Shown: in pieces, positions 21,567 through 55,189 of the stretch
Position numbering within the stretch: position 1 is the stretch's first letter
Layout of the letters: every line of letters begins with the position of its first letter
Source: Azolla caroliniana
Taxonomy: Eukaryota; Plantae; Polypodiophyta
DNA length: 64,000 nt
Direction of reading: 5' to 3'
Assembly: GCA_043228905.1 (NCBI GenBank)
Contig: JBHGNT010000010.1
Location: 20,336,001 to 20,400,000 of the forward strand
Program-made: the position numbers and the translations under genes
The notes under the pieces: generated by a model
The model's input: only the letters and a program-made list of their open reading frames with translations
The model's database searches: none
What the model was told of the DNA's origin: nothing

Positions 21567-21608
21567 AGCTGGCCTCTCTCGAGCTATCTATCCAGACAGA
21601 GCTCAGAT

Positions 21609-23009: not shown

Positions 23010-23029
23010 TACTCCCCCTCTTTAAAACA

Positions 23030-25394: not shown

Positions 25395-25605
25395 GGGGGT
25401 CTTGGACTAGGGAGTACTCAAGGGATAGAGAAGACCTGAGGTTTGCTTTACGACAATACTACTTCTCGACCCCTTCCCGAGCAAGGTCTTGTTGCTCTTT
25501 GTTTTGTGAGGCCGGTGGCTCTCGTTGATCACGACTCATCGACCTTCCGAGATCACCGCATGAGCCAAGTGACCAAACGGGTACAAGCAAGATGAGCACG
25601 CAACA

Positions 25606-27713: not shown

Positions 27714-27913
27714 TAATCGATATTATTATCTCACGTCAATACCCCTCTAGACGTATGAGATGAGGTTCAAGATGAGGTTACTATGGTAACACAAAGGTGT
27801 TTTAAAAACCATGGGGGTGACAAATAAATGTCTTTCCCTGATCTGTATATCGATTTTTTCATGGTGACTCCCCGAGGCTCAACCATGTATGTTCGCGTCA
27901 TGAATAGTTTATA

Positions 27914-28313
27914 CACGAAAAAAATGTTAACAATAAACTATGTTTCGGTGCCCACATATGTGGTTTCGGCTCTTTAAGTCCTATTACGAGGACCCCGAAG
28001 TGCACTTAGACCTCACGAAAAAAATGTTAACAATAAACTATGTTTCAGTGCCCACATATGTGGTTTCGGCTCTTTAAGTCCTATTACGAGGACCCCGAAG
28101 TGCACTTAGACCTCACGAAAAAAATGTTAATAATAAACTATGTTTCGGTGCCCACATATGTGGTTTCGGCTCTTTAAGTCCTATTACGAGGACCCCGAAG
28201 TGCACTTAGACCTCACGAAAAAAATGTTAACAATAAACTATGTTTCGGTGCCCACACATGTGGTTTCGACTCTTTAAGTCCTATTACGAGGACCCTGAAG
28301 TACACTTAGACCT
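27914..28313. repeat. Tandem array, 100-bp unit x4, near-identical, inside the element A leader
   Basis: cacgaaaaaaatgttaa...cacttagacct starting at 27914, 28014, 28114 and 28214. Confidence 0.95.
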
Positions 28314-29619: not shown

Positions 29620-30075
29620 TATTAGAAACATGTACTAAAGTAAGCATTAGATAAGGATAGATCTAGGTAGATAGAAAGAAAGGAGAGAGAGAAAGAAGGG
29701 TGTCGATCCACCCGACCACCCCCGAGCGAAGGGATCGAGATGGACTCGAGCCTCGATTGGCGTCCCATACCACCGTCGTGGCATCGAGTTGTACCTGGTG
29801 CTGGCGCACTCGCTACAAGAGTTGACCCACCACAAGACAGAGTCTCGACGTAGTCAACAAGATGATGAAATGAGGGTAGCTAGGCCTCTATTTATAGCGA
29901 TACCCAAGGCCCCCAACCATGTTCACACTTGGCCTAATGGGTTGTCCCAATCCTGAGGATTTAAAAGTAATCCTCCCCTTCTTTACACTCTCGTTTAAGC
30001 CTCACACTTATCCACGTGTATAGAATACTACGGTAAATTCTTACCACGTGATATTATATGGTCATGCCCGTAACA
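29620..30075 (-). repeat. Element A 5' LTR
   Basis: Adjacent to the tRNA-iMet PBS; TATA-like CTATAAATAG on the minus strand. Confidence 0.92.
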
Positions 30076-31980: not shown

Positions 31981-32556
31981 CAATTGAAGCTCGAATAAAA
32001 ATTTATCACATCACAAACATGAACTAATCATATTTGTAAATGATTTACGGCTTCATCAAATGTTGGTGTTAACGGAAATATTGTCATGTTATTTAGTTTT
32101 AGCAACTCTATGAGGTTTAATATTCCTAGCATAAAATATTGATCATAGGCCAAATATATATAAGAAACATGGGGACATCGTAATTGTGCAACTTAAATTA
32201 TCTATTTAATTGTGATACCTTATATGTTTATTATCTAGCAATTCTCTATTTAATAGAAACACCTTGTATGTTTATCATCTAGTAATTATTTGCTTAATTG
32301 AGACAACTCGTATGGTTTTATATATTGATTGCATATTTAATTAAGATAAACTTTTTTTATTGAGTGTGTGTTAATTGTAGTTTACTTAAAAAGTCTTAGG
32401 TGTATTTTTATTACGTTGATTGGAAGTGCAACACTCAAAGTGGGGGGTCTAAAATACATCATTGTCTTCTTGATTGCAATAAATAATCATCCCATCAAGG
32501 TGACCTTATAACAATCCTGTCTTTAAGAAGTTCTTTCACTCGTTTGAGTTTTGAGA

Positions 32557-33049
32557 TGTTGTCCATGGGACAAAAAGGTAAATTAGTTAAATGTAATACG
32601 CCGGTAGGTAAGGCTAGTAGGTGAAGAAGGTAGAGTTTAGGAAAACGCCGAGTTTCGAGCCTCACAGTCAGCCGACGGCTCGACTTTGTATGAAGAAAAT
32701 GTATATAAACCGAGGTCTGCGTACCTCAGCAGAGAGAGAGATATATCTAGGGTATAAGCGAGGTCGTTTTCATAGTTACAAGAGCTCTGTAAGGTCACCG
32801 GCTGGGAGCTGTGTTTTGTAATCATCGATAATTATTTGTCGTAATACATATCTATTAGCTCTTATTGTTTTCATCTGTGTTCCTTCGTTCCTGTGATCTC
32901 AACTACGTATACGCCCTTGGGTTATATTTCGGGTATGCTCTCCGTTCTCTTCCCCTAACGACGCCTCCGTGTACAAGCCTTCACATTACACTTCCCTGAT
33001 ACCGATAGCCTGTAGGCATATCGAAGGTTTTCCAAAGGAACGGATAACA
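32557..33049 (+). repeat. Element B 5' LTR
   Basis: TGTTGTCC...GATAACA; TATATAAA at about 32702. About 15 mismatches to the 3' LTR in the first ~210 bp. Confidence 0.93.
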
Positions 33050-33371
33050 CAATTTGGCACGCTCGGTTACAGTTGTGAGATCACAACGAACTACGTTGAA
33101 GGCAACCTTTAGCCGCCATTACGACCCCAATTGCACCACGCGGTCTCGGCCACCTTCCCGACGCCCTGAGCCAGTCGAAGGAACTTCCGACTCGACGGTC
33201 ACGGACCAATCTTTCCAAGAAATATCCGAGGCTCACCAGTTGCAATCCTCGCTACCTGATACTCGGTCACGAGTTGATTCCACACCAACCTCTCCACCAA
33301 GCCCTCCAGAGGTCACCCAACCTGACCCTAACCCTTTTCCGGTCTTACCGAAAAGTCTAGATTTCGATACC

Positions 33372-35027
33372 ATGTCGTATCCTTACCCACGATACACCGA
33401 CGGCCCCGACGCGGAGTCGCACATCCGTGCCTTCATGTCCACCTGGCAGGCCAACCACTCAACGCAGCAACTTTCGCTTGCCGAAATCGATGCCTCAAAA
33501 ATCGCCGAGTTTACGTTATCCCTCGATGGACCAGCTGCACGATGGTATTCTCGCCTCGACGTAGGGGAGGTTACCACCTTCCAGGATGTTTGCACGAAGT
33601 TCCTAGAACTTTTCCATCGCGAGGTGCCCAAACGAGAACTGCTCCGACATTTCTTTTCCATGCACCAAGAACCACACGAGACGGTCGCACAGTTCACGAT
33701 CTGGTTCCAGGATCTCTACAAACAAGTGGCCGACGATGTCTCGACACAACACATTCTGGACACATTCCTGTCTAGCTTACAGGAGCCTCTACGGATGACT
33801 CTTGCACTTACTAATTTTGCGAACCAAACGATCGAGCAAGTCATAGCGCGCATCCTCGCCCTCGATCAGACACAGCAAGGCACTACAAAAGCGCCCTTCC
33901 CCAGGAGGACAATCGCTTCCGCCAAGCCCTCCAATGCACAGTTTGCTCGGGATCGGGCCATCTGGCCCTCGAATGTCCTCACCGGCCACAGTGTCCGATC
34001 TGCCAGTCCCGATCTCACATTGTCGAGCAATGTGAATACAATATGCTCAACTGCACAACAACGGCCCCGGTTCGCTAGATCGAGCCCAGGGATACATACT
34101 CTCGTCAGGACAAGCGACAATCCTACCGGAACCAGGATAACGAACGACCCGATCACCAGATAGGCGGCGCCATGACGACGATTACCGTCGAGACGACGAT
34201 TGTTACCAAAACGACAACCGACAGAGATCGGACGGCCGTCGTGATCGCTATCGCGATGACCAGTACCGAGCAACCGACGATTATGATCGGTATGATGATG
34301 ATCGGGATGACCGATACAATCAGAGAAATTCCCGTAATGATCGGCGCAACTCTCACCGAGGATCGCACAACAACAGAAGGAATAACGACAACCGTGGTCG
34401 GGACCCCCCTCAAAATGAACCGCGCAACTTGAACGCGCCCCAGACCAACCCACCAACACACAAGGCCGGGAATCAATCACACCCCCCCACACACACATAG
34501 ATCGGGCTAAAACCAGCAACTCGGCCGTTGTTACCTGCTTCAAGTGCAACCAATCTGGTCGCTACGCTACGCAATGCCCAACAACAGACCACGGAAAGGC
34601 TCCCGCCGTGAATAGTATTATGGCCGACGTGCAAAACATCACAACACGCAGTAAAGCCCATGCCACTCCATGGCAAGTACAAGATGAAGTTCGACAAGCA
34701 GCCAAAGAATGGATTGATACGACCAACAAAAACAATGTGGTGCGGATGCAAACAGAAATGCGAGACGCAACCATTGGAGCACCACAATCCTTGGCACCAT
34801 CCACATCGACAGAAGATGACCAAATGTGGGAAGCCCTTACCAGTTCCAGGATCTCGTTGCCTCTGCATAAACTCTTACCACTCATGCTGCGTTTTCGGGA
34901 CACCTTGGCTACACTCACGGCCAACACCCATTCTGTCGCACCACCTGTGCACTTGACCGAGCTAGGAACGGGTCCACCCCTCATGGATTCTCAACACCCA
35001 GCCATAAAAATTATGATTAAAGGATGG
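33372..35027 (+). pseudogene. Element B gag and start of protease (interrupted by C)
   Basis: YPYPRYTDGPDAESHIRAF...LDGPAARWYSRL...FLELFH gag core; Cys/His knuckles; ends ...AIKIMIKG at the C insertion. Confidence 0.85.
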
Positions 35028-38000
35028 TGTCGCGTTGTTACGCGCGTGCGTGGAGAACAAGGCGGGACCACTGGGGTCTTGGACTGAGGAATAGGTGAGA
35101 AGAGGGAGAGAGAGAGAGAGAGAGACGCTCACACACGTATAGACAGAGAAGTGCACGAGGACGCGGCCCAACAACACACGAGACACGAGTTGAGAACACT
35201 AGCGTATGTATATAAATGCATACAGATGACTCGAACGGTTACAACCGACCAGGTCGGCGAGGTGGATGCCGACGCCTGATCACCCATGCACACATGAGAG
35301 CAAGATGGAGATCCTGCCGGAAGCACACGGGCGTTCCGCGGAGCAGGATCAGCCTCCTGAGAACCTGCGCCAAAGAAACCTATGGAGAACGACAGAGAAG
35401 AAGAGCCCCCCCAGTCCGACAGCACTTCGTTCCTTTTAGCGCGCGATACCCTCTCTCCCCCCGTCTCCCTCTCCTTTATAGCTCAAGGAGGGAGGCCGTT
35501 TCACCTGTTTACATCACATTAATTCTTTGTCCTTTCGGACAGAGATACTCCTCGATTTCCCTTATAGAATATTGCTACCTAGGATCTAACCTTTGTGCCT
35601 ACCTATCTACCATACGACAAGGGACGTGCCCACATGTAAGGGTTGGTTCACACACATAACACACGGTTTGCGTTTGGGGACGGTTTTCTTCACGACATCC
35701 GCCCCCACCTAACCGCGCATCCACCGGTATGCGCCAAAATTGGGTTCCTATGGGAGAAAACCGATCCTTGCTTTTATTCCTCGTTTACCGGTTCATCCTC
35801 CGCCTCGGGCTGCTCGTCGTCGCTGTCCATGCCCCCTAGCTCCGGCTCCCGGTCGTGCCGTTTCTTGAACGCCTTGATCCTCTTCCCCGCTACCGGTATC
35901 GCCATTCTCGTACCGTTGAGCTCCGCGAGATGGTACGTCCCATTGGCGTTGGCGCCTATTACTACGTAAGGCCCGAACCACCTCCTCGCAAACTTCCGCG
36001 TGGCCCTGTGCTAATTGTCGAGACTGCTGTCGTAGACTAGCACCCAGTCGCCTTCCTCGATCTTCCTTGGTCGGAGCCTGTGTGTTTGGTCGAACCGGGC
36101 TTTGTTCCTTATCCTCGCTACTCGAAGTTTATCCGCGGCCTGTTCTATGTCCTCTGGCCTCCGCTCAAGCTGTCGAATCCGCGCCGCCAACAGTTCCTCC
36201 GGGCTCATCTCGTCCCTCCAGTCCACCGTGGCCCACGAGGAGATCGTTCGCTCTATTGGCATGATCGGCTTCTGTCCGAACATCAGCTCGGCCGGCATGA
36301 ACTCGGTTATCGAACTGTGCGTAGTCCGGTCCGCCCACAAGGCATAAGGTAGCAGTTGTGGCCAGTCCTCGACTCGGCCTCCGCACGCCCGTAATAGCGC
36401 TTTGACAATTGGCTCGTGCCTGCACTCCACCTTCCCGTTCACCTCCGGATTATACGTTGTGGTGAGCGAAAGTTTGACTCCTAGCCGGTCGAACAACTCT
36501 TCGGCCTCTTCTGCGTCCAACTCACCACGATCAGCCATGATCTTCCCTACACACCCGTATCGGCATACTACGTCCTCAATCAAAAACCGGCACACGGCTG
36601 CCGTCGTCTTGTTCTACAGGGCTCGGCCTTCAACTTGGTTCGTTAGATCTTCCCGAGCTAGCACCAGATACCGCATCTGTCCTACCCCCATTGGCATCGT
36701 CACCAAATCCACCATCCACTTGAAGTGGACGGTCGGAGGGTAGGTCGGGTGAAGCTCGTCCCGATGTCGGATCATGGAGTGCACCTGACAGCTTCCGCAA
36801 GTCGTCACGAACCGATGCACGTCGCAGTATAGTCCCGGCCACCAGTACTTCCCCTTTAGCTTTTCGAACGTGGCCCACGTTCCACGGTGTCCAGCCCACG
36901 GGCTATCATGGTACGCCGCCAGCAAATCGTCCTGTTCCTCCTTCTTCGCCACCACTCGGAGCGGGATGTCGTTCCTCTTCTTCGGGTGCTTCTAGATGTA
37001 TCCGTCCCGGAGAAAGAATCGGTAGGCTTTCTTCCGAATCCGGTTGGCCTCGTCCGTTGTCCATGCCGCGTCTGATGTCATTGTTTTCAGGAACCCGCCG
37101 ATCTGCAGCCACTCCCCGTCGTACTTGCTCTCGTCGAAGTCGTTAAGCGTTGAAGAGCATTCCCCGTTGGTTGTCACGTAAGCCGCCTCGAAGAAGTCCA
37201 CGTCGACTTCCTCGTCCTCTGAAACCATGTCGCCGTCGTTTTCGAACCTCGCCCTTGAAAGCATGTCGGCCATGGCATTGTCTTTCCCGGAAAAGTGTCG
37301 TATTTCTGGATTCAGGGACTTGATGTACGCTATCCACCTGAGCATTGCCAGGTCCGGCGTCGCGCATCCGGAAACCATGCCAAGAATTGGCTGGCAGTCC
37401 GTCTCGATAATTACCTCTGCCCCGATCAGGTAGTCTTTGTCGGCCTTTACCGCCGAAACGTTCTCCAAAGCTCGCGTTTAACCTGGGCGTATCCTCGCTT
37501 TCGCTCACTGAGGACCTTCGCGCCGAACCGGATCGGGGAACGCATGCCGTCCTCGTCCTCCTAGTTGACGACCCATCCAATCCCGGTCGGACTCGTGTCT
37601 ACCGTCACGTAAATTGGAGTGCTCTTCCCGTAGACAGCCTTTCGGAGCGTCGGAGCCGCGGCAAGTGCTTCCTTCATCTTCCGGACAGACTCCGTATGCT
37701 CGTCTCTCCACTCGAATCTTCGCCCCTTTTTCAGCAACCCGTATAACGGCTCCGCGACGTGAGCGTAATGCGGGATCCAATCCGTGACCGAGCTGCAGTC
37801 GTTCTTCATCGCAGCGATGGCTTCTACCTTAGCCGGAGACGGTTTCCGGCCGTATGGCCCGCATAGGTGTCCGACGACCATGATCTCTGATTGCCCGAAG
37901 GCCGACTTTCCCCCGGAGAAGGTGAGCCTCGCTCCCTCCAGCCTCTGCAGCACCTTCTCGCAGTCGTCGATGTGCGTCGCCACGAATTTCCGGCATCCGT

Positions 38001-41000
38001 CCAGTCTGATCGTCTCGTCCCTTTCCTCCACCGGGCATCCCTTGATCGCGACGTCGTCCAAAAACGGCATGGTGATGTCCGGGATACAATCCCTCAGCAC
38101 TTTGTTCATTGTGTTCACCATGTGAGCCACTGAGTTCGTCCCTCCTTGCGGTAGAGTACACATCCGTACTAGGCCGAGAGGAGTTCGCATTGTCGTGATG
38201 TCTCTGCTCTCTACGGCAAGCTGGAACTAATCGTACCCCGAGTAGAGATCACCGACTGAGTAAATCGACCTTCCGGCGAAGGCCTCCACGAACTCGTCTA
38301 TTGTCGGTCCGATTCTTGCGTTTCGAATGGTCACCTTGTTGACCGGCTGCAGGTCTTGGATAAAGCGCAGCGTGCCGTCCTTCTTTGGCACGGTAAACCA
38401 CCGATTCGAGTATGGGGCACTCGACGGTTCGAGGATTCCCATCTCGACCTTCTGCTTTAACAGCTCCATCAACTTTGGGATGTGAGCTCTGGGTACTGGA
38501 ATCGGTTTGAGACTCCACGACACATGCGGTACCGTGAATATCACCATCGGTTCCACGACTGTCGAGTCTACGCACCCGATCTCCTCTGGTGAGAATGCGA
38601 AAGCCTTCCCGTGCCTTCCGAGCATTCCCCGAAAACGGTCCTCTTCCGCCAGCAGTAGGAAGCCGCCCCCACCGATTTTGAGCTCGCGCAGCGTTATGTC
38701 GATGAACGTGTGTCCTATGCAGGCCGGATTTCATAAACTCGCGACGCAACCCCCTTTATTCGCAACTCGCTGCCCTCCGGAAAGGGAGCCGTGATTGGCC
38801 TCACCTTTCGGTCCACAGTCTTCTACCTCGTGTCCACCCGGGCCGTCCAATCCGACTCGAGCCCTCTATTGAAGTCGGCGATGACTTCGTACATCCTTTC
38901 CGAACATACCGGAATCGTCCGAACCTCTTTAAGGACTCCTTCGACTACCTCTCGCAGCTCCCCCAAGGTATCGTCGAACGAGACCGCCTCCACGGCTCTG
39001 TTGATTTCCTCTCCGAGGCCGAGGATACCACATGCCCGAAGTCGACTATCGTACACCCTCCGTTGTCGGAGAACCAAAATTTCCTACTTATAGTACAGGT
39101 CTTCTCCGCTATCGTACATTTGTGGGGTTTTCCCGGAGTGTCCGGACTATCGCGGCCCCACGCCTTGATAGCCCTCTCTAAAAATCCTCTCGGCTTTCGC
39201 CCCCGAGGGTCTCACGGTTCCGCTCATGGTTCGGCATCACCGTCAGGAACTAGACCGAGTGACGCCCATCCTGGCTCTTGACCCTTGCATAGGCCGAGCC
39301 GTTGTCCAGCACCTTGGTCTCCATCAGTGCTGTCGTGATGTACGGTTATCCTAGTATAACCGGATGTGAGGACGTCTCTTGCACGAAGAAGTGCTGGTCA
39401 ATCTCGACATCGCTGATCTTTACTCGTACGTTCGGGCAGGCTCCATGCAGTTCTTCGGTGGCACGCGTCGCCACCCGTATTTTCCACCCGTGCTTGGTGT
39501 TGATCGGCCATTTTCCCTTCTTATAGAAGTCCATGGACATCAAATTGATTTCTGAACCGTGGTCCACCAACGCCACCACTGGTTCATGAACATCTCCGAT
39601 CTTCATGGGGGTCTCCGTAGTCGCTCTGGCCCAGTGCGGCCTCGAATAGTGGCTCTCCGCGAACTCGTCTTCCAACGCCATGTCCTCTATGTGTGTCGTT
39701 GGCACCTCCATCGGCTTCTCCGGTTCTGTCTCCGTCGACAGCCTCTTCCTCTTCACCAAGTCTACGATGGAGTCGTGGAACTCCTTCTTGGCGATCCCAA
39801 GCACTTCCCTCAGCGACCGTTCCACCTTGCTGTCGAGGATTCGTTCTTCCAGGACCTTTTGCAGGTCCGTGGATCTTTCAATTTCTGTGCCCAACCGGTA
39901 CCCGCCCTTCTTGGGATTATCCTGGGCGCCGAGTACACCGGCCTCATTCCGCCTTTGCCCGAATCGAGTTTCATATCGCTGCGAGGGCCTGGCACCTCCG
40001 GTTTTCCCTACCTGTTTGTCCTCTACCAGAGCCTCGTAGTTTTGACAAGCGGCTTCGATGAAGCTCGTCTTTTCTTCCACCGGGTCACTCCACCCGGTTA
40101 CCTCTCGAACCCGTTTTTCCGCACGGTCCACCTCTTCTTTCCTCAGCCGCGCGCCGTCGAGGCCTTCCAGCATCGTCGGCCAGAACCCGGCTTTGTTCAT
40201 CTTCGGGGCCTCGCCACCTCCGACCCGAATACCAGCTGACGCCGAGTAGTGGACGGTCTTCGCGTGACGAGTCGCCGCCTCCTCCATCAGCCTTTTCATG
40301 CCCCCTCGCCCGACGTTCAGGTTCGGGGCCCTTCGGGTCTCGCTGGTGTGCACCCGACCATTCCACAGGTACACCACGTTGCTTCTCATCGCCTCGGCGA
40401 AGTCCCCGCAATCCTTTCAGATGTGCCCAACCGCGTCACACCACATGCACCTGTTTTCCGCCAGAGGTCGTCGGTCACGGGCCTGTTCGCCACCATCCCT
40501 CCGTGCCTTGGCGATATGGAGATCCTTTACCATCCGCGCCAGCTCCTCCAGAGCTGCTCCCCCGGACGAGCCCTTGACCATGCCGGTTGAGGCCGACACG
40601 GGCCTGTTCGCCACCATCCCTCCATGCCTAAGCGATCTGGAGATCCTTTACCATCCGCGCCAGCTCCTCTAGAGCTGCTCCCCCGGACAAGCCCTTGACC
40701 ATGCCGGTTGAGGCTGACCCGGTCTCGAGCGAATCTCGGGTCTCTTCCCTTCGCGTTGGTGGTGTTGGCTCGAGCTTCTTTGCTGCGACAGAGCCCACCC
40801 CTGTCGATCCTTTGTCAACCCATTCCCGCCATTTGTCGAAATGGCCACAGAACCTTTTCACCACGGCCCACTCGGCCGTCAGCCCGTCATCAGTCTCCAA
40901 TAGGAGGCCTACCTGCTCCTGATCCCGCTCGTCAACCGACTTAACAAACAATAGGACACGACTTGTGTCCAGAACGGTCCGATCAAGCACCGAGAGGCGC

Positions 41001-42082
41001 GCGAAGCGTTCCTCAAACTCCCGAAGGAGCACTGACGCGTTCCTTCCTTTGTCGGGGGTCTCCACCCACTCCATGAAGTCCCGCTTCGAAAGTCGAAGCG
41101 CATCTTCAAGCTCGTATCTTTCAAGGAGCCGACCTTCGAACTCCTCCCAGGTCCGGCTCTCGGCCCGTACCTCGAGAACCTCCGTATGGATACCTGGCAT
41201 CGCCACTCGAGGGAACCCGGCTAGACGCCTCTCTTCCGGAATGTCCCTCATTACCATCTCAGCCCGGTAGGACGCCAAGTAGCTCGTGGCATCCTTTCCA
41301 CTAAACCGGCCAATCGTACCGACAACCGCCTCGATAGCCCTATCAAGGGCGCCAGTGCCTTCGCGCGCACTCACTATACGGTCTACATCCGAAGCCATGG
41401 CTTCTGCAAGGTCCGACCCCCTCATCTTCTACTCCTCTACCGTCTGTTCACGTCGGGTTCACCAAATATGTCGCGTTGTTACGGGCGTGCGTGGAGAACA
41501 AGGCGGGACCACTGGGGTCTTGGACCGAGGAATAGGTGAGAAGAGGGAGAGAGAGAGAGAGAGAGAGAGAGACGCTCACACATGTATAGACAGAGAAGTG
41601 CACGGGGACGCGGCCCAACAACACAGGAGACACGAGTTGAGAACACTAGCGTATGTATATAAATGTATACAGATGACTCGAATGGTTACAACCGACCATG
41701 TCGGCGAGGTGGATGCCGACGCCTGATCACCCACACACACAGGAGAGCAAGATGGAGATCCTTCCGGAAGCACATGGGCGTTCCGCAGAGCAAGATCAGC
41801 CTCTTGAGAACTTGCGCCAAAGAAACCTATGGAGAACGACAGAGAAGAAGAGCCCCCCCCAGTCTGACAGCACTTCGTTCCTTTTAGCGCGCGATACCCT
41901 CTCTCCCCTCGTCTCCCTCTCCTTTATAGCTCAAGGAGGGAGGCCGTTTCACCTGTTTACATCACATTAATTCTCTGTCCTTTCGGACAGAGATACTCCT
42001 CGATTTCCCTTATAGAATATTGCTACCTAGGATCTAACCTTTGTGCCTACCTATCTACCATACGATGGTTTTCTTCACGACA
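35028..42082 (-). mobile_element. Element C: GC-rich Ty3/Gypsy LTR retrotransposon (fungal-type RT, Phygy-like), tRNA-Trp primed, nested in the B protease
   Basis: LTRs at 35028-35697 and 41469-42082 (TG...CA). PBS TGGTGAACCCGACGTGA at 41448-41464 is complementary to the tRNA-Trp 3' end; PPT GGTTAGGTGGGGGCGGA at about 35698-35714. Gag from 41425, protease ALVDHGSEINLM, RT TLPQGGTNSVAH...MPFLDDVAIKG, RNase H VTVDTSPTGIGW, integrase HDSPWAGH...CGSC...DRGE...NGKVE. Confidence 0.93.
35850..41425 (-). pseudogene. Element C gag-pol, disrupted by stops and frameshifts
   Basis: ORF-track pieces 40628-41425, 39346-40389, 38227-38625, 37561-38190, 36992-37468, 36614-36955 and 36011-36595 are collinear gag-PR-RT-RH-INT. 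Confidence 0.88.
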
Positions 42083-45000
42083 ACGAGACCTGCACGAGTG
42101 CATAATCGACGGCGGCTCTAGCGTGAATGTCATCAGCGAGGCTACCTGTCATAAACTCGGCCTGAGTCAATGGGAACCTTGCCCCTTTTGGCTTCGGATG
42201 GCCGATACACAGTCGGTTCGCCCCATCGGATTAATCCGCCACCTCGACTTTACTCTAGGAGGCCACATGTTCACTATCTAGGCCATTGTATTACGACTCG
42301 AAGCACAGGGCGCCTACCCAATGTTACTTGGAAGACCATGGTTGCGCACAGCAAATATCAAACAGCATTGGCATCGCAACATGATTTCGTTTCGACGAGG
42401 AAAGACCAAGGTCCGGATCATAACCAAAGAACGTGTAACCACGCCCCACAACACCTTGCTGTTATACACGAAAGGTGTGCACATGCTCGACGGGTTAGCC
42501 GATGACGAGGTGGAGAACTTCCTAGAAGATCATCCCACTATCATACCCTTCTTCGAAATCGACGCGATATCGGCCGTCGGCACACCTCTAGGCGAGGAGG
42601 TCACGGAGAATACACCTCCCCAGGACGAGCCAGATCCCACCACCATCGCAGAATGACGACACGCTCGGGATGCTTTTGAACGTGAACTCGCCATCTCCCA
42701 ACGAGTGAAGGCATCAATGCTCGAAACACTGAACCTCGGTTCGAACGAGAACCCTCGCACCCTACAGATTGCTAATAACTTACCAGCCGGCGAACGAGCA
42801 GCCCTCATACGCTTACTCACTGATTACCAGGATGTATTCGCATGGTCTTACACGGATATGAAGGGTTTGGACCCTCATTACTACCAACACTAGATCCATC
42901 TTCTCCCTGACGGTCGGTTGGTTCAGCAAAGACGCTATCGTATGAACCCCAATTATGCGGCTAAGGTCAAGGAAGAAATAGACAAGCTCCTTCGAGTCGG
43001 GTTCATACGACCTGTAAAACGCGCCACATGGTTAAGCCCAATTGTAGTCGTCCCCAAGAAAAACGGGAAAATTTGAGTCTGCGTCGACTACTGCAAGCTT
43101 AATGCTGCAACGGTCACAGATGGATTCCCTCTCCCATTCACAGATAGCGTTCTCGACACGGTGGCAGGTCACAAATGCTACAACTTTCTAGACGGGTTCA
43201 GTAGCTACAACAAAATCCGAATGCACCCGGATTATCAGGAGAAAACAACATTTGTCACAGAATGGGGTGTTTTCGTGGCAGAAGTAATGATGTTCGGATT
43301 GAAAACGACATCGGCCACGTTCCAGCGCATCATCACCGAAATTTTTAACGAGTATATCCCGGCGTTCATGCAAGTCTTTCTCGACAACTTCGTCGTGTAT
43401 GGCCAGCGACTGGAGCACATGACCCAGTTACGTCTCTGTCTTGGTCGATGTCGCCAGGCTCGGTTAAGTTTAAACCCGGCAAAATGCGCGTTCTTGGTGA
43501 CAAGCGACAACCTACTCGGGCACATCGTCAGTCAAGAAGGTATTGCCATGGACCCGGATAAAGTACAAGCCATCCTAAACGCCCCCGCACCCTCGAACGC
43601 AAAGGCCCTCAGCCGATTTCTGGGGCAAATCAGATGGCACAGCCGGATGATACGCCACCTGGCCGATTTCGCGACACCACTACACGCGGTGGTGCATCGA
43701 CTTCCCTTTCAATGGACTTCAATCGAGGACGAGACTTACCAAGCTTTGAAATTAATGCTCTTGCATGCCCCAGTTGTACAGCCCCTAATATGGTCGGAAC
43801 CTTTTCACATCTTCGTGGACGCATCAGATATCGCCATCGGGAGCGCACTTACGCAATGCACGCCCCCAAATTGGTATCGGCCAGTCTATTATGCTAGCCG
43901 ACGTCTCTCGGCCGCTGAAAAGAACTATTCAACCACCGAACGAGAGGCCCTCGGTATGATCTACAACATCAGTCAATTTCGGCATTACCTCTTAGGCCGA
44001 AAAATCACATTTCACGTTGATCATTCGGCCCTCCTTTACCTTGTTAATAAAGAACCCTGACAGGTCGCCTGGCTCGATGGATGCTCCTGTTACAAGAGTT
44101 TGATTTTCATATACAACATCGACCCGGAGTCCAACACGTCGTTGCGGACTACCTAAGCCGCCTTGAGTTAGGGGACCCTGTCGAGCCCACGTATGACGAT
44201 TTACCCGATGTCGGCCTATTTAATCTCACAACGCTGCCAGACGACAAAGAAGATGAATGGATCACGGAGATGACCCATTTCCTTAGTACTGGCCTGCCTA
44301 CCAACCACATGCCCCTCGATGCGCGGAAACGACTCGCAGTATGAAGCCGGAACTTTTGTCTCGTTTCCGACATCCTCTACCACAAAGGCTCGGACGGAAT
44401 ATGGCGTCAGGCAATTCGACAATTCGAGAAGAAGGCCATCCTCCAAGAGGCCCACCTAGGAATCGCAGGTGGACACTACGTCAAAGAGTTCACAACAAGG
44501 AAAGTATGGTAGAGTGGGTTATGGTGGCCTACAACGAAAAAGGATGCCCACGAGTTCTGTTGGCAGTGCAACTTGTGCCAACGGTTGGGACAACCGATGG
44601 AACAAGCTCGGATGCCACACCAACCCATTCTTCCATTGGAACCATTTCAAAAATGGGGGTTAGATTTTGTGGGACCCTTCAAGCCAGCCGCGGCATGAAC
44701 CAGTAATAAGTATATCATCGTGGCCACGGACTACTGCACAAAATGGGCCGAGACAACACGGCAGCATCCACAACCAAATTTGTGTACGAACATCTCTGGT
44801 GCCGTTATGGATGCCCAATAGAGCTCGTTAGTGACCAAGGTGGGCACTTTATAAACCATATAATACGCGAGCTTATGACACACTACGCGGTTGTACATAA
44901 GAAAAGTACACCATACTACCCGTAGGCAAACGGATTGGCAGAATCGACTAACAAAATTCTCCAAACAATCCTGAAGAAGATCGTCAATGAGAACCGCACC

Positions 45001-45474
45001 GATTGGGATGACAAGCTCCAGAGTGCACTATGGGCTTATCGCACTACATTCAAAACGAGCATTCAATCCACCCCCTTTCGGATGGCTTTTGGTCTCGAAG
45101 CCGTTATGCCCATCGAGTTCCAAGTTCCGAGTCTCCGAGTTCTAGTTAAAGCAAGGCTCCCCGAGGCCCAATCCGAACAATATAGGCTAGAACAACTCCT
45201 CGAACTTGGCGAGGATCGAGTAGCGAGCATGGCCCAACTTGAACAGCGCCAACGACAACGAAAAGCCTTTGTGAACCGACATCGGAAAGGATTGGAACAA
45301 GAACTAACCATCGGCAAACCGATCCTCGTTTTCCAGACACGACTCGGTGCCATGCCCGGGAAGTTACGATTTCGATGGACCAACCCCTTCTGGATTATTG
45401 ACAAGTTCAATGGCACGTTCCAGCTCGGCACCCTCGACGGGGAAATTGTCAAAAACTGGGTGAATGGATTCTGA
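42083..45474 (+). pseudogene. Element B pol (protease remainder, RT, RNase H, integrase), disrupted
   Basis: RDLHECIIDGGSSVNVI (protease); VPKKNGKI*VCVDYCKLN...FLDGFSSYNKI...MMFGLK...VFLDNF (RT); IFVDASDIAIGSAL...YSTTEREALGM (RH); WGLDFVGP...SDQGGHF...NGLAESTNK (INT). Confidence 0.9.
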
Positions 45475-46790: not shown

Positions 46791-47345
46791 CTGGAGTGAT
46801 GGTGCCCTGTCCGCTTTTGGAAATGTGTCGATGGTGGCCTTGACAGGTGGGGTCTCTATTTGGGTTGGGGCGTGGCTGGTTTGGGGGTGCAGTGATGCTG
46901 CCTCGATTGTTTGTACCTGTCAGAACCAAGGATAAAAGATAGAGTGATGGAAGAAGGATATTAGAGAACACGAGAAGAAAGGAATGAAATACTAAGAGAA
47001 GAATAGATGTATAAGATAGAGAAAGAAAGAGAATGGATACAAGATATGTAATGAGAGCTAAAGACTGGTGTTGATTCGAATTGATTTGAGAATACATGTA
47101 TGCGCTTATTTATAGGTTCCTATAGAATAGCTTAGAGATTTCTAGAATGTTCTAGAATGTTCTAGACCTAGAATGCTCTAGGACATTCTAGAACATTCTA
47201 GAATAATCTAGAGTTTTTACAATAATCAATGTAATACAAGAAGTAGCTTTTATTGTTTCATATAACAATAAGCTATCTTAATGGTTGAGGTTTTCAAGTA
47301 TGAATTACAAAGTTCGAGGTTCAAGTCCGGGTGACGCCATAATGG

Positions 47346-50300
47346 TCATGTGTTCATGACATTATCCCTCCTTCGAGAACACCGAGTGGAAGTCGGCGTT
47401 AACATTGTTGGGTCGGGCTTGTTTGGATAGTGACGATGGAAGTCGTTGACCAAAGCTTCAGCATTACAAACGTTATCGATGGGTTCCCAAGTGCGATCAC
47501 TCGGAGGATAACCAAGCCAATCAACTAGATAATAAAGCTTATTGCGCACAATCTTAGAATCGAGAATAGCAGCTACCTCGTATTCGGGGCCGTTCACAAG
47601 TTGTACAGAAGGCGGTGGTGGCACGACACGATCAGGAATTAAAGAGGTGTGGCAAGGTTCCAAAAGAGAGCTATGAAAGACAGGGTGAAGCCGCATATGT
47701 GCAGGAAGGTTAAGACGAAATGTTGCATCATTAATCTGCGTCGTGATGACAAAAGGACCTAAGCATTGATAGTCAAGCTTAGCACACGGTCGGGTAGTCT
47801 TGATGTGACGACGAAGCAACCATACACGGTCACCAACCTTAAACGGAGACTTAAGACGATGTCGATCGGCATTGGTCTTATGGTGTGCTTGCGCTTTCTG
47901 AAGATGTGACGATAACTCGAACTGGATTTGTTGTAGTCGGTGGAGGTGATGCGCCGCACTAGGGTTTCGTGACACCTCGGGAAGATCCAGTATACACCAT
48001 CGAGGGTGGTTGCCGGTGTAGGCAAAGAAAGGTGTAACTTTGGTAGAAGAGTGGACCGTATTGTTGTATGCAAACTCAGCAAGATGTAAAATTTTACTCC
48101 AATCATCTTGTTGATAACTAATGAAACATCGAAGATATTGCTCGAGCGTCTGATTTGTGCGCTCTGTTTGTCCATCAGTTTGTGGATGATAAGCCGAAGA
48201 GAGTTTGCAAGAGATTTTGAGGCCTGCCCATAGGTGCTTCCAAAAGTGTGAGATAAATTGAGGACCTCGATCGCTAATAATATCATTCGGGAGACCATGA
48301 TGGCGAAACACTTCACGCATAATGAGATCTGCAGTTTCTTCACTACTGATGGTCTTTACACATGGTACAAAATGTGCCATCTTGGTGAACCGATCCACTA
48401 CTGTTAAAATAGTATCAAAGCCTTTGGAAGGTGGCAGATCCGTAATGAAATCCATAGAAATAGACTGCCATGGCTTGTTGGGAGGGGGTAATGGTTGTAG
48501 TAAGCCATAAGGGTGATGTCGGGGTATTTTGGCGCGACAGCAGGTGTCACAAGTGCGAACATAATCTTCGACAAATTTTTGCAAGTGAGGCCACCAAAAC
48601 GAACGTTTCACCAGCTCAATGGTCTTGGAAATACCAAAATGTCCAGCCATGGGGGCATCATGACAATGTTCCAACACTTGAAGTTGGGGTGATCCGTCGG
48701 GGACGTAAAGGAGATTCTTGTAGAAGAGTAAACCATCTTGCCACTTGAAGTCCTGATAATGTTGAGATGACCCTGGCAATGTGGAGCAAGATGGACGACT
48801 TGAACCACAGTGGGCTAAGACATCCTTAGCAAAATCATCCGAATGAAGTTGTTGCCGAATAGTGTCAAGAAGGGTAGAATCAAGTGGTGTGGCATAAATT
48901 GTTGTTACCTGTAGCTTTGATGGCCCGAGGAGAGTTTGCTTTTGATTGTCAAAGGCCGGATCTCCAGGTCGAAGTGCTAGATACGAACGCCGAGATAGAG
49001 CATATGCTTTCCCTTGTTGTTTTCCGGGGCGAAAAATGATCTTGAAATCGAAACGCGTTAGAAATTGGGCCCACCAAGCTTGTCATCTATTTAATACTCG
49101 AGCTGTTTGAAAATATGTGAGATTTTTGTGATCACTATAAATGATAATCTGATGAGGTGATCCTTCTAGAAAATGACGCCATTGCTCGAATGAGTCGACC
49201 ACAGCTAGTAACTCCTTGTCATGCACCTCATAGTTTATCTCTGAAACAGTAAACTTTCTCGAGTGAAACGCGACTGGATGTATCTGCCCGTCCTCGCCTG
49301 GTTGCGATAGGATACTCCCCAATGCAAAGTCTAATGCATCCGCCTCAATAGTAAATGGCTTTTCAGGATCAATATGTGCTAGGATGGGTGCTGATGTGAA
49401 TGCCTCTTTTAGCTGCGTAAAAGCCTTGTCCGCTTCGATACTCCAAAAAAATGCTTGATTTTTCTTGGTGAGTTGAGTAAGGGGCAACACAATGCTTGAA
49501 TGATTATGTATGAATTTGCGATAGAAGTTCGCAAATCCGAGGAAACACTGGACATCCCGAACTGAGCATGGGGGTTTCCATTCCAATATTGTTTGGACTT
49601 TTGCCGGGTCCATGAAAACACCCTGGGATGAAATAGTGTATCCCAAAAATTCGACTTGTTTGCAATCAAAACTGCATTTCTCAAGTTTGGCGTAAAGACC
49701 ATACTTCCTTAAGCGTTCAAGTACTTGCCGCACATGTATATCATGCTCCCCCTGTGTTTTAGAGTAAATCAATAGATCATCTAGGTAGATGATTAGAAAA
49801 ATATCCAAGAAATCCCGAAAGATGTCATTTGCCATATGTTGGAATACGGCAGGTGCATTTGTGAGCCCGAAAGGCATGACTGTATACTCGAAATGACCAT
49901 ACCGAGTACGAAATGTTGTTTTCGACTCATCTCCCGGCCGAATTCGAACAAGATTATATGCACCCCTTAGATCAAATTTGGTAAAATGCTTTGCCCCACC
50001 AATGCGTTCTAAGAGATTGGAGATTAAAGGTAAAACATACCTATTCCTTATGGTGACTTTATTTAAGCCTCGATAGTCCACGACCAGACGAAGGGAGCCG
50101 TCCTTTTTCTTCACAAAAAAGATAGGAGCACCAGCTGGAGACTTTGAATGTCGAATAAACCCATGTGCAAGATTTTCCTTGATGTATTCTCGAAGAACCT
50201 CAAGCTCAGTGGGTGATAAATTGTAAATCGGACCCCACGGAGGCTCTTTTCCTGGTTGGAGATCAATAGGACAGTCGTACGGCCGATGCTTTGGAAGAAC

Positions 50301-50975
50301 ACTAGCTTTGACTTTGTCGAAAACATCAGCATAGTCTTGATATTTTTTGGGAATTTGGATGTCTGAATTCCCTTGAGTGACACTAGAAGGTGTCACTGAT
50401 ACTGCAAATAAGTAAAGGTCCTCCTTGCCTCCCACTTGGTGCAATTGTTGCAATGTGATGGCTGAAATTTGATGAGAAGGATATGGTGCATCGGTAGAAC
50501 TATATACTTTGGGAGGATAATCCCGAGTTCGATCCTTGACAATGATATTTTCTGCTAAAGGGCACCTAATTTCTCGCTTCCTCCAATCGATTCTAGGGTT
50601 ATGTAGCTCGAACCATGGCAAACCGAGGACAATTGGATGCTCAGGACTACGGATTATGTTAAAGGAAACTACACATCCTAAATCACCCAAGAGTATGTGT
50701 ATTGGCTCAGACTCTTCAAATATCTTCCCGGAAGCTATGGGGCGTCCATCAATCACTACTACGGAAACTGGACAAGGAAGTGTATGCAAGGATATTTGGT
50801 GTTTTTGGGCAAAATCTCTATCCATGAAACAAGAATTGGCTCCAGTATCTAAGAGGGCTTGGACATGAAGTTGACAACTGGGTGTCTTAACTTGTACTAG
50901 GGCTGAGAAGACTCTACTAACATGCTTGGAAGAAATGGAACCCATACTAGGTTGTACATATCTAGGGTTGTCCAA
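47346..50975 (-). pseudogene. Element D pol (PR-RT-RH-INT-chromodomain), nearly intact with lesions near 49083
   Basis: ORFs 49083-50975 (630 aa) and 47346-48779 (477 aa); TGA at 49083-49085 in place of the expected Arg codon in LNRRQARW. Confidence 0.9.
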
Positions 50976-51044
50976 CCAAATGGCTCCTATTTTGGCCGGA
51001 CTTATTCGTTTGACTCCTCTTCTAATTGGCTTAGGACTTCAAAT

Positions 51045-52168
51045 TTATATGGACAAGGGTGGATTATTCATAATATTAGATTCACTAACTACTTCTAAAA
51101 TGTTGGACTCATTTTTATTGTCATAGTGAATTTGATTTACCTGACGTCTCGGCCTACGGGAGCAATGAATGGCTATATGTCCTGGACCTCCACAATATAA
51201 GCACAGATGGTTTGCTCGACGACGTTGCTTCTCTTCGTCTGACAACGGTCCTCGTCGTTGAGTCATATCGATCTCCATGGGTGTAGGACTATCCATTGGG
51301 ACTGGACTACGTGTTTGCCTTGGAGTTGGAGCAGGGCTATACATTTGCCTTGGGGATGATTGCGCCGTTACTGATGCATAAGTTGGTGTGAATCTAGATC
51401 TTGTTATTTGTTGTTGTCGCTCACATCGACGCTCAAAAAGGCGATTATCACACCGTATTGCTCGACTAATAGCTTCTGTAAGTGACCTTGGATCCTCGGG
51501 GAAGGTAAGAAGTAAGTCTTTGACATCACTACGAAGGCCTGAAAGGAATTGCTCCATTAGGGCTTGTTCATCCCAAGGAATATCGCTTGCGATGAGACGG
51601 AAATTGGCAGCATATGTTGAAGCTAGTTGATCACCTTGACGAAGTGTACGAATCTTGTTGATAGTTGTTCTCACCCCATCAGTATCTCCGAAACAAGCCT
51701 TAAATTCCTTGATAAATTCCTCGAAATTATTCAGTAGAGGAGAATTGGTCTCTAGCAATGGAGCAAACCACGACAACGCTATGCCAGTCAATAAAGTGCC
51801 CACTAGCCCGACTCGTGATGCATCTGTTGGATAACGTGCGGGATGCATTTGAATCACCAACCGTACTTGATTCAAAAAACCTCGGAAATGCGCCCTCGAC
51901 CCATCAAATTTAGCTGGGAGGCTAATTTTGGGCTCCTTGATAAGTCCCTGACCTTCAACCCTTTGTTGTTATAACACGACGATTGTCGACTCTAACTGTT
52001 GCACTCGTCGCGTGAACTCCTCTTGTTGTTGTTGCTTCTCTATAGTAACCTTTTGTAGATCCCCAAGTAGACGTTGATTCTCTACTTCAAGAGATGCGAA
52101 CTTGGATTTAAGGTTCTCCATTTCTGCAACAAGGGTGAGATATTCTTCTGAGTTAATGGCAGCCATGG
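51045..52168 (-). pseudogene. Element D gag, with an in-frame stop near 51969
   Basis: MAAINSEEY...coiled coil, *QQRVEGQGLIKEPKISLPAKFDGSRAHFRGFLNQV, LLTGIALSWF, TPMEID, CLYCGGPGHIAIHC knuckle. Confidence 0.88.
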
Positions 52169-52731
52169 TTTCAGGATGGTTACAAAGGAGGATAAGAGAG
52201 AGAGAGAGTGTGAGAGAATTCAAATCAAACTGTCAGAACCAAGGATAAAAGATAGAGTGATGGAAGAAGGATAGAGAAGAATGGATGTATAAGATAGAGA
52301 AAGAAAGAGAATGGATACAAGATATGTAATGAGAGCTAAAGATTGGTGTTGATTCGAATTGATTTGAGAATACATGTATGCGCTTATTTATAGGTTCCTA
52401 TAGAATAGCTTAGAGATTTCTAGAATGTTCTAGAATGTTCTAGACCTAGAATGCTCTAGGACATTCTAGAATAATCTAGAGTTTTTACAATAATCAATGT
52501 AATACAAGAAGTAGCTTTTATTGTTTCATATAACAATAAGCTATCTTAATGGTTGAGGTTTTCAAGTATGAATTACAAGGTTCGAGGTTCAAGTCCGGGT
52601 AATGCCATAATGGTCATGTTTTCATGACACAACGCGGCGATCGAGCAATTGCTGGAAGACTTCAACGATGATCAGATGATGTTCCAATTGTGGGTCTGAT
52701 GGACAAAGTCTTGTCCCACAGGCGTGCCAGG

Positions 52732-53222
52732 TGTTATCCATGGGACAAAAAGATAAATTAGTTAAATCTAATACGTCAGTAGGTAAGGCTAGTAGGTGAG
52801 GAAGGTAGAGTTTAGGAAAACGCCGAGTTTCGAGCCTCACAGTCAGCCGACGGCTCGGCTCTGTATCAAGAAAAAGTATATAAACCGAAGTCCGTGTACC
52901 TCGGCAGAGAGAGATATCTAGGGTATAGGCGAGGTCGTTTTCATAGTTACAAGAGCTCTGTAAGGTCACCGGTTGGGAGCCGTGTTTTGTAATCATCGAT
53001 AACTGTTTGCAGTAATACATATCTATTAGCTCTTATTGTTTTCATCTGTGTTCCTTCGTTCCTACGTTCTCAACTACGTATACGCCCTCGGGTTATATTC
53101 CGGGTATGCTCTCCGTTCTCTTCCCCTAACGATGCCTTCGTGTACAAGTCTTCACGTTACACTTCCCTTGATATCGATAGCCTGTAGGCATATCGAAGGT
53201 GTTTCCAAAGGAAAGGATAACA
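52732..53222 (+). repeat. Element B 3' LTR
   Basis: Direct repeat of 32557-33049 followed by the TGAGA TSD; no PPT upstream. Confidence 0.93.
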
Positions 53223-55189
53223 TGAGATACATTAACTTTGGTCACAATTTGAACCAAAACACCATTCTTCTTCTTCCTATTCTTTCAAAGTTGGCCTATC
53301 TTAAACAAGTGGACAATTTTTTTCATATCAAGAATATGCTCTTTCCTCATGATATCATAGAATGTAATATACGCATTCGTTTGCTCAAAATTTCCTTTTC
53401 ATATGTTTGTAAATAAATGCATGTATTATCCAAACATACTTATGTTTTTTTTTTTAACTTTTGGCTTCTTTTTTTGTGCTCCCTTTTGGCGATTTGGATG
53501 CATTATAGAGGGTCGAGCGGGTACCAAAGGGCCGAACACGTCGACCCTCACCATGCCTCCACGGTCCACCTTCATTGCGCCTCCATGTTGCTTTTGCCCT
53601 TTTGCCCCTCCACCTTCACCACATCTCTCCACCACTCTAATGGAGACATGGATTAATTCATGACAAATTGCCAAATTAGGATAGAATTAGCACCCATTGA
53701 AGCTCGTCCTTGATTAGGACAACTCCAAACGGTAATTATGGCATGACAAGGTTGACAAGGTCATCGAGCAAGCGAGTATATTCTGGTAGCTAATTATCAA
53801 TGTATGTATGTATGGCCAATTAGTAATTAAGATGCAATTAGTGGCCACCGCAAATGTCAACTTAAAATGATGAGTGTGATGTCTTCAATTATAATAATAA
53901 TAACATGTCTATAGTACAAATATTATTATTGTCATGATTTATGTGTGGGGTGGGGTTGGATCGCATGATGATGGGTTTGCTACATTATTCATGAATATTC
54001 ATGTGATGTTTACACTTTGGGTTCACACAAAACCTCAATGTATGTATGTATGGAGATGTAAATGATCGTCATTACCATATGTATTACCATAGAATGGAAC
54101 TCGTGCAACTCCACCAATGCACCTTCACCAGGTCTCTCCACTACTTTGCCCTCTCGGTCCTTCGAGGGTAAATAAATATTATAGTAAATAATGAATACAA
54201 AAGTATGGTATTTACCATACTTCAAGGGTGTTTACCATATTGGAATGATCGAAGTATACTTGAATGTGAATGCACGTATGGTTCATACTATGAGTGATAT
54301 TATATTGGGAATATGCTCTCCTTAAATTTCTACCATTGAACAAAATATCACCATTTAATGCATACTCCCTCGTAGTCCTAATATATTTCAATAGTGATTC
54401 TAGATATAACATATCTTCCCTATGTTGATGAGATAAATTAATAAGAGGTACACCATCGCGCAAGCGAAAAAAGAAACAAGCTATTAATAAGAGGTACACC
54501 TGTGTTCTAAGAGAGACAAGGATATGCTAATATTCATGAATATGTCTTATCTATATGTGGACAGTGGCACTACGGATACCATAATAATTTCTCTACAATA
54601 CTTATTGGCAAGTTTTATGCAAAAAGGTTAAGTCTAAAAGAAAGGCTAATGTTACCCAACTATATTTGTTAGTGTTTAGGGTTTAATGGACCTAGAACGC
54701 AATGAAGCACAATTATCTCTATCATCACTAATGAACACACCATCACCCAAAATGTAAGTCAGAAAGAAGAGATGAGGATGATGCAAGAAAACTACCAAAC
54801 GAGGGTTGAGTAATTGTCAATCCCGTAGCTATAATTAGGAGCCAACCAAGGGTTGATCATTTAGCCATAGTCAAGAATCGTGTGATAACTAGTTTGATAA
54901 ACAATAGTAGTTAGCCAAAAGTGGATAGATTGTCACATAAAGTTACAAGGAAATCATCACTCGATATCCATTAGTCAAGAGTGGAGTGACAATTAGGTCA
55001 ATGACTATTTGGTGATAATAGGGATAAACGATTGTGAATGTCATATGAATAGCAAACACAAAGGGGAGAATGGTGACGAGGATGAAGAACCAATCATGTT
55101 GGAATAAATATTGTTGATATTCATGGATTTATAGAAATATAGATACAAATAAAAGTATGATTGACATGTTCTATTGAACTCAACTAGGA

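What the first reader, a model, noticed from the sequence alone, without database searches (positions are those of the whole stretch)
52713..52731. tRNA 3'-end sequence replaces the polypurine tract: an LTR element with two inward-facing primer-binding sites
Seen: immediately before B's 3' LTR there is no purine tract. The + strand reads GTCCCACAGGCGTGCCA-gg-TGTTA (52713-52729). Its reverse complement TGGCACGCCTGTGGGAC is a classic PBS 2 nt from the LTR end, and it shares TGGCACGC with the normal PBS at 33055. Established: plant tRNA-Arg(UCU) ends approximately ...GAGUCCCACCAGGCGUG-CCA (recalled; one-base gap to this site), and Gypsy plus strands are normally PPT-primed. Inference: a tRNA could anneal to minus-strand cDNA here and prime the plus strand, i.e. 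both strands tRNA-primed, which I do not know to be described for LTR retrotransposons. Alternative: a one-off rearrangement (see the inversion finding) placed a PBS-like sequence at this junction.
Basis: partly seen in the sequence, partly recalled or inferred. Interest (0 to 1): 0.8.

Follow-up and report, generated by a model that had tools for sequence, protein, structure and literature searches.

The report
Second tRNA replaces retrotransposon polypurine primer
A large lineage of plant jumping genes carries a match to a host transfer RNA's end where such elements normally have the purine tract that starts the second DNA strand, and six insertions still hold a copied tRNA fused to that very end, so a host tRNA likely starts both DNA strands.

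Summary
Confirmed and extended. Element B (32557-53222) is a non-chromovirus Ty3/Gypsy copy. Before its 3' LTR it has no polypurine tract but a 17-of-18 match to the 3' end of host tRNA-Arg(UCU) plus CCA. This is lineage-wide: 23 of 24 integrase-anchored copies, and 3,465 genome matches against 0 controls. The site is bipartite: tRNA positions 49-58, a covarying hairpin, then positions 59-76. The key evidence is six independent insertions in which a DNA copy of the tRNA itself (18-64 nt, with CCA) is fused in sense to the U3 end of an LTR. These copies follow the tRNA, not the element's own site. Four of the six belong to families whose minus-strand PBS fits a different tRNA, Arg(UCG). Best reading (0.87): tRNA-Arg(UCU) anneals to minus-strand DNA and primes the plus strand. 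There is no biochemistry, and the fused copies rest on one assembly. Nine literature searches found no description. The scan had noted the site before on other pieces of this genome (eight notes seen); two word searches found no note on the fused tRNA copies.

The parts
32552..32556 (.). Left target-site duplication TGAGA
32557..33049 (+). 5' LTR of element B (493 nt, TG...CA)
33050..33054 (+). 5-nt spacer CAATT between U5 end and PBS
33055..33067 (+). Minus-strand PBS for tRNA-Arg(UCU): 12 of 13 nt here, 13 of 13 in many family copies
33048..34160 (+). gag frame (Retrotrans_gag)
35028..42065 (-). Nested Gypsy N (PBS TGGTGAACC read as tRNA-Trp from recall, NCGN target sites in other copies, G-rich PPT): Phygy-like, internal control with a PPT
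   Evidence: features from PMC6317226 supplement
43077..44057 (+). RT and RNase H of B
44333..45300 (+). Integrase of B, frameshifted near 44750
46918..52629 (-). Nested chromovirus C (chromodomain, PPT present, no tRNA-type PBS seen; Tcn1-like): internal control with a PPT
52690..52699 (+). Upstream half of the 3' site, like tRNA-Arg(UCU) positions 49-58 (T stem and loop)
52701..52711 (+). Inserted 4-bp hairpin at the A58/G59 boundary, covarying across families
52713..52729 (+). tRNA-Arg(UCU) 3' end match (positions 59-76 less one C, ending CCA) at the PPT position; inferred plus-strand primer-binding site on minus-strand DNA
52730..52731 (+). 2-nt spacer GG, inferred first bases of the plus strand, later trimmed by integrase
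   Evidence: trimming is inference from retroviral integrase biology
52732..53222 (+). 3' LTR of element B (491 nt)
53223..53227 (.). Right target-site duplication TGAGA

Best explanation
This Ty3/Gypsy lineage has a conserved tRNA-Arg(UCU)-matching site in place of the polypurine tract, and host tRNA-Arg(UCU) likely anneals there to the new minus-strand DNA and primes the plus strand. Shown: the site, its conservation, its match to host tRNA genes, and tRNA copies fused to U3 ends. Inferred steps: (1) a tRNA-Arg (UCU or UCG by family) primes the minus strand at the PBS; (2) RNase H clears the RNA from the minus-strand DNA; (3) tRNA-Arg(UCU) pairs through its last 18 nt with one C bulged, and through positions 49-58, the DNA hairpin looping out at the m1A58 position; (4) RT extends the CCA end through the 2-5 nt spacer and the LTR; (5) RNase H removes the tRNA and integrase trims the spacer to leave TG. 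When removal fails, RT copies into the primer, stopping at m1A58 (18 nt) or reading through (56-64 nt), and the copy is fixed beside U3. The internal site is copied from element DNA, so the tRNA does not overwrite it, which would explain why the missing C and the hairpin persist.
For: Conservation: 11 of 12 3' LTRs among 30 LTR-found loci (the 12th lost its junction); 23 of 24 3' LTR starts captured in 40 integrase-chosen loci, none with a purine tract; 3,465 vs 0 matches; many unrelated LTR families; 6 of 80 metagenome loci. Fused tRNA copies at U3, 6 events at 9 places: C2:12014872 (57 nt, 5' LTR of a full element with gag-pol in sense); C16:17527334 and 17527822 (perfect 18-mers between LTRs of an insertion with 5-bp TSD, whose own 3' site differs from the tRNA by two substitutions and a gap); C20:881278 (18 nt); C2:12742741 (56 nt, A58 read as T); C9:12739707 (64 nt; family oriented); C6:16780295 (63 nt; oriented by homology and U5 spacer). 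Four of the six are in families with an Arg(UCG) PBS, while 2 of 2 fused Arg(UCG) copies lie on the PBS side. A pattern that accepts either form after an LTR end found 4 of 4 tRNA-type, 0 element-type (only 2 of the 4 are U3 junctions). A58 is changed in 3 of 25 long copies vs 2 of 246 other A positions, p=0.006; m1A58 as an RT stop: PMC11251516. Hairpin: 89.7% of cells paired, 3 of 4 pairs with two-sided changes, 0 of 500 shuffles. Predicted tRNA duplex -47 kcal/mol vs shuffle mean -22 (RNA parameters as a proxy). RNase H acidic residues are present in a full-length polyprotein.
Against: No cDNA ends or biochemistry. The fused copies are rare accidents seen in one assembly, so they show that tRNA can prime here, not that it always does. 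One insertion (C21:4842457) has the same tRNA 18-mer fused in sense to an internal gag/pol position with only weak match, so this tRNA can also be joined at off-target sites. PBS-side fused copies outnumber U3-side ones, 23 vs 6 places among 29. The one-base gap is unexplained. Covariation counts come from related sequences, and the last 15 columns were fixed by my search pattern. Two places (L340, L344) are ambiguous. C6 is oriented by homology only.
Confidence: 0.87

Rival explanations
1. The element's own RNA at this site survives RNase H as a structured, tRNA-like fragment and is the normal plus-strand primer (a non-purine PPT). Real tRNA primes only now and then, or gets in by a template switch through the shared last 10 nt.
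For: The site lies exactly where a PPT would, and its hairpin covaries, which could act in RNA. A template switch within GGGCGTGCCA cannot be excluded for any single junction. The off-target fusion at C21 shows the tRNA can be joined loosely.
Against: No U3-side remnant of element type was found: 0 of 4, though that pattern covers only junctions that follow an LTR end. All 6 U3 events are tRNA-type. A self-primer would not need to keep a match to one host tRNA ending in CCA. The T-stem-like outer helix shows 18 unpaired cells and no compensation, as expected if both arms pair with a fixed outside partner.
Confidence: 0.08
2. The site serves RNA pairing (3' site with the PBS, closing the genome for strand transfer or self-priming of the minus strand), and the plus strand starts by some other route.
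For: In family B the site and PBS are complementary over 10 nt; predicted pairing -18.9 kcal/mol for the window copy. Inversion joints at the site occur (L182, L186, L194, L196, L200).
Against: Families with an Arg(UCG) PBS keep the Arg(UCU)-type site, which is not complementary to their PBS. The match to tRNA runs beyond the PBS-complementary part. It leaves the plus-strand primer and the U3-side tRNA copies unexplained.
Confidence: 0.03
3. Same site and polarity, but the usual primer is an 18-nt 3' tRNA fragment rather than the whole tRNA.
For: Two of six U3 events (C16, C20) hold exactly 18 nt.
Against: Four events hold 56-64 nt; 18 nt is also the m1A58 stop of a whole tRNA (PMC11251516); the conserved upstream half matches positions 49-58, which an 18-nt fragment lacks.
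Confidence: 0.015
4. A one-off rearrangement placed a PBS-like sequence at this junction.
For: None beyond the nested insertions and a deletion of about 410 bp or more just upstream of 52690.
Against: 3,465 genome matches; 23 of 24 copies; collinearity with two other copies.
Confidence: 0.005

Closest known systems
Athila (non-chromovirus|OTA|Athila; PMC6317226; ATHILAfinder 10.64898/2026.03.20.713144)
   Same: 5-bp TSD, about 10 kb, GAG-PROT-RT-RH-INT, no chromodomain, no extra RNase H found, an extra sense ORF after integrase, AT-rich spacer between LTR and PBS; the RT tree groups it with angiosperm and liverwort non-chromodomain elements at 100/100.
   Different: Brassicaceae Athila have a conserved PPT-3' LTR junction (97%) and an Asp/Asn PBS; this lineage has an Arg PBS and a tRNA-Arg site instead of a PPT. 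No REXdb reference sequence was in the tree.
Canonical Ty3 and retroviral reverse transcription (PMC5371799, PMC13332604, PMC11251516)
   Same: tRNA-primed minus strand, LTR formation, RNase H, m1A58 stop giving 18-nt tRNA copies, primer remnants at LTR junctions.
   Different: In all of these the plus strand starts from an element-encoded PPT. HIV PPT mutants fall back on the central PPT, not on tRNA.
Tat/Ogre/TatIII (Arg PBS; PMC6317226 supplement)
   Same: tRNA-Arg PBS, 5-bp TSD, non-chromovirus.
   Different: Defined by an added archaeal-type RNase H, which the Pfam scan did not find here; PPT replacement not reported in the passages seen.
Helenus TRIMs (PMC10886601)
   Same: LTR elements with tRNA-derived sequence.
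   Different: The tRNA-like part lies inside the LTR as a promoter, a PPT is present, and the paper finds no role in priming.
Tf1/Tcn1/TAR self-priming (PMC6317226; 10.1101/2022.12.06.519325)
   Same: A known departure from the standard primer scheme.
   Different: It changes the minus-strand primer and keeps the PPT; here the plus-strand primer is changed.

Membership tests
Ty3/Gypsy LTR retrotransposon | Paired TG...CA LTRs with TSD | tested here: met
Ty3/Gypsy LTR retrotransposon | Domain order GAG-PROT-RT-RH-INT | tested here: met
   best PDB match Ty3 RT, E 3e-49
Ty3/Gypsy LTR retrotransposon | tRNA PBS after the 5' LTR | tested here: met
Ty3/Gypsy LTR retrotransposon | PPT before the 3' LTR (usual; 'most' elements in PMC6317226) | tested here: not met
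Athila | RT clusters with Athila references | tested here: inconclusive
   100/100 clade with angiosperm non-chromodomain elements, but these carry no lineage label and form a separate subclade (about 42% identity)
Athila | No chromodomain, no added archaeal RNase H | tested here: met
   one full-length polyprotein of a sister family, Pfam E<=0.1
Athila | Extra sense ORF 3' of pol; 5-bp TSD | tested here: met
   877-aa ORF with weak coiled-coil hits; TSDs
Athila | PBS for tRNA-Asp/Asn and conserved PPT junction | tested here: not met
   PBS is Arg(UCU) or Arg(UCG); no PPT; reference values
Tat/Ogre | Added archaeal-type RNase H | tested here: not met
Phygy | 4-bp NCGN TSD and tRNA-Trp PBS | tested here: not met
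   B has a 5-bp TSD and Arg PBS; nested element N fits Phygy instead
Plus strand primed by host tRNA (proposed mode) | tRNA covalently joined to plus-strand cDNA in particles | not testable with these tools
   only genomic traces

The most novel reading that the evidence does not exclude
A successful Athila-related lineage abandoned the polypurine tract: both cDNA strands are primed by host tRNAs, in several families by two different isoacceptors (Arg-UCG for minus, Arg-UCU for plus), through a structured bipartite site on single-stranded minus DNA that opens the tRNA T arm. The genome keeps direct traces of the plus-strand primer.
Probability: 0.85. Interest if true: 0.9.

Novelty: new variant of a known kind. 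Interest (0 to 1): 0.86.

Why it matters
PPT priming of the plus strand is treated as general for retroviruses and LTR retrotransposons in the reviews read. A lineage with thousands of copies that uses tRNA there would show the step is replaceable. It offers a simple biochemical system (tRNA on single-stranded DNA, RNase H removal of a tRNA from the plus strand), exposes the element to tRNA-fragment control at two sites, and means PPT-based annotation and cDNA-end methods can miss or mis-orient such elements.

Tried and rejected
Independent reads: no RNA holder listed. Contigs of 7 distinct DNA runs laid on the C16 junction did not bridge it, and a neighbouring flank was also uncovered; this says nothing either way. 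L039 (C3:22147032) first looked like a U3 fusion because of its 2-nt spacer, but its LTR is read from the U5 end, so it was moved to the PBS side; L195 and L198 were assigned the same way. L357 matched the junction pattern but is PBS-side. L340 and L344 were left out as ambiguous. I first suspected that nested element N also lacked a PPT; that came from a wrong LTR boundary, and N has a G-rich tract. Distant relatives (48-57% integrase identity; L255, L282, L296, L303) showed no LTR pair, so the age of the trait is open. Four of 32 family representatives (L102, L207, L210, L064) were left out of alignment A1 because of indels or divergence, and the window copy was added. The 40 integrase loci were my pick from 122 hits, favouring long open frames; 16 did not show a 3' LTR start within 10 kb. 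Five of 35 matches were not fetched. The host organism was not determined; earlier notes say moss or fern. REXdb sequences were not among the 5 supplements held as text, and bioRxiv supplements are closed; both bear on the Athila label. PMC7472051 and PMC3185511 passages gave nothing on tRNA-primed plus strands.

Full report
Observation. The window reads GTCCCACAGGCGTGCCA at 52713-52729, GG, then an LTR from 52732. That LTR pairs with 32557-33049 (457 of 489 aligned positions identical) and the element is flanked by TGAGA on both sides. Element B has gag, RT-RNase H and integrase on the + strand and two nested Gypsy elements. Its last 20 internal bases hold no purine run longer than 3, whereas the three other LTR elements in the window have purine or G-rich tracts at that place. 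B is collinear with two other copies apart from the insertions and a deletion of 3' internal sequence; the 40 bases before the LTR are intact.

It is lineage-wide. Among 30 loci found with the LTR, 12 are 3' LTRs; 11 carry the site and one has lost its junction. That query contained the site, so I repeated the test from integrase hits: of 40 loci chosen from 122 hits, 24 showed a 3' LTR start, 23 had the site within 2 mismatches, and the 24th had a deletion across the junction. The site-plus-TGTT pattern has 3,465 matches against 0 for the reversed control. It stands before many unrelated LTRs, autonomous and not, with gag-pol in sense where present, and in 6 of 80 metagenome loci, which may come from the same or close species.

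The partner tRNA. Host tRNA-Arg(UCU) genes end in CCCACCGGGCGTG or CCCACCAGGCGTG, without CCA. The site equals positions 59-76 of the mature tRNA less one C. Upstream, in columns that my pattern did not select, lies a match to positions 49-58, separated by about 14 nt. The insert holds a 4-bp hairpin with two-sided changes in 3 of 4 pairs (89.7% of cells paired, 0 of 500 shuffles; 29 related sequences). The outer T-stem-like helix shows no compensation. Folding with RNA parameters puts the tRNA 3' half on the minus strand at about -47 kcal/mol for the window copy, with the hairpin looped out at A58/G59 (shuffle mean -22).

Two tRNAs. Family B's PBS fits Arg(UCU) over 13 nt, so its PBS and 3' site are complementary, which allows a self-pairing reading. 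Other families have a PBS that fits tRNA-Arg(UCG) over up to 13 nt yet keep the Arg(UCU) site. Self-pairing cannot explain those.

Fused tRNA copies. A search for the T loop through CCA gave 45 matches; 16 lie in tRNA gene arrays and 29 are tRNA copies with CCA joined to an LTR end. Their 5' ends fall at tRNA positions 1-4, 13-29 and 33-49, and A58 is changed in 3 of 25 long copies against 2 of 246 other A positions (p=0.006), as expected for RT copying a modified tRNA (m1A58 as RT stop: PMC11251516 passages). Twenty-three of the 29 places are on the U5/PBS side, assigned by spacer and for part of them by gag/pol strand: ordinary minus-strand primer traces that act as a positive control. Six places (4 events) are on the U3 side, and add two events. 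C2:12014872: tRNA 20-76, TG, 5' LTR, Arg(UCG) PBS, gag-pol, own site, 3' LTR; triplicated by a tandem duplication, counted once. C16:17527334 and 17527822: an insertion with TSD AATAG and near-identical LTRs reads LTR, U5 spacer, perfect 18-mer, AG, LTR, twice over, then PBS and genes; its own 3' site differs from the 18-mer by two substitutions and a gap. C20:881278: 18-mer of the other isodecoder before a 5' LTR with Arg(UCG) PBS. C2:12742741: 56 nt with A58 read as T before an LTR followed by an Arg(UCG) PBS. C9:12739707: 64 nt before a solo LTR whose family is oriented by PBS and site. C6:16780295: 63 nt between a U5 end with spacer and a B-like U3 start (orientation by homology). Both fused Arg(UCG) copies found are on the PBS side. 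A pattern accepting either form after an LTR end gave 4 of 4 tRNA-type: the two C16 junctions, one PBS-side joint, and one case (C21:4842457) where the 18-mer is fused in sense to an internal gag/pol position of an Arg(UCG)-family insertion with TSD.

Mechanism. Shown: site, conservation, tRNA match, U3-side tRNA copies. Inferred: after RNase H clears the template, tRNA-Arg(UCU) anneals to minus-strand DNA, RT extends its CCA end through spacer and LTR, RNase H removes it and integrase trims the spacer. The RNase H acidic residues are present in a full-length polyprotein (residue roles from established knowledge). The main rival is that the element's own RNA fragment is the usual primer and tRNA an occasional one (0.08); it predicts element-type remnants at U3, and none was found in the limited test. 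Against my reading: the traces are rare, come from one assembly, and the C21 case shows off-target joining.

Known relatives. The architecture is Athila-like: one polyprotein without chromodomain or added RNase H, an extra sense ORF, 5-bp TSD (reference table PMC6317226 supplement). A 39-row RT-RH tree puts the lineage in a 100/100 clade with liverwort elements (50-56% identity) and angiosperm non-chromodomain elements (about 42%); no labelled reference was available, and the Athila PBS and PPT features are not met. I file it as an Athila-related non-chromovirus lineage, not as Athila.

Literature. Nine full-text searches listed no report of tRNA-primed plus strands; the library lacks most subscription papers. 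Seen: PMC6317226 (passages, one supplement), 10.64898/2026.03.20.713144 (abstract, section 5, passages), PMC5371799, PMC11251516, PMC13332604, PMC10886601, PMC3185511, PMC7472051 and 10.1101/2022.12.06.519325 (passages only). The scan holds 21 notes with the same words; the 8 shown, all from this genome, reach the same reading. They are not independent support.

Verdict. Real, lineage-wide and very likely functional. A new variant of a known kind of element, with a priming step not found in print. Interest 0.86.

Noticed in passing
G000:C21:4842457 (L360): An insertion with TSD in which PBS and gag are replaced by an 18-nt tRNA-Arg(UCU) copy fused in sense to internal gag/pol sequence; likely off-target plus-strand priming.
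   Followed up: partly
L182, L186, L194, L196, L200, L201: [quoted passage not shown]
   Followed up: no
G000:C11:693800-703400, C22:1428800-1504900, C4:19551000-19587100: Tandem arrays of tRNA-Arg(UCU) genes, many with decayed stems, the same tRNA that this lineage uses.
   Followed up: no
G000:C16:17526865-17537154 (L317, L318): Very young insertion with three LTRs in tandem at its left end joined by tRNA 18-mers; suggests end-to-end RT jumps at the m1A58 stop.
   Followed up: partly
L318:6722-9355; L063:6624-7784: Long extra sense ORF after integrase (877 aa in L318) with only weak coiled-coil Pfam hits; function unexamined.
   Followed up: no
window 35028-42065: Nested Phygy-like element with NCGN target preference in other copies; its 5' LTR lacks the first 80 nt here.
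   Followed up: partly
window 22553-30075: Another Gypsy on the - strand with a PBS starting TGGTATCAGAGC and a clear PPT, holding 100-bp and 106-bp tandem repeats.
   Followed up: no
window 20532-21587 (-): Host-like open frame with a RING-H2 finger.
   Followed up: no
U5-PBS junctions of the lineage: The spacer between U5 and PBS varies from 2 to 11 nt by family, unusually long for integrase end processing.
   Followed up: no
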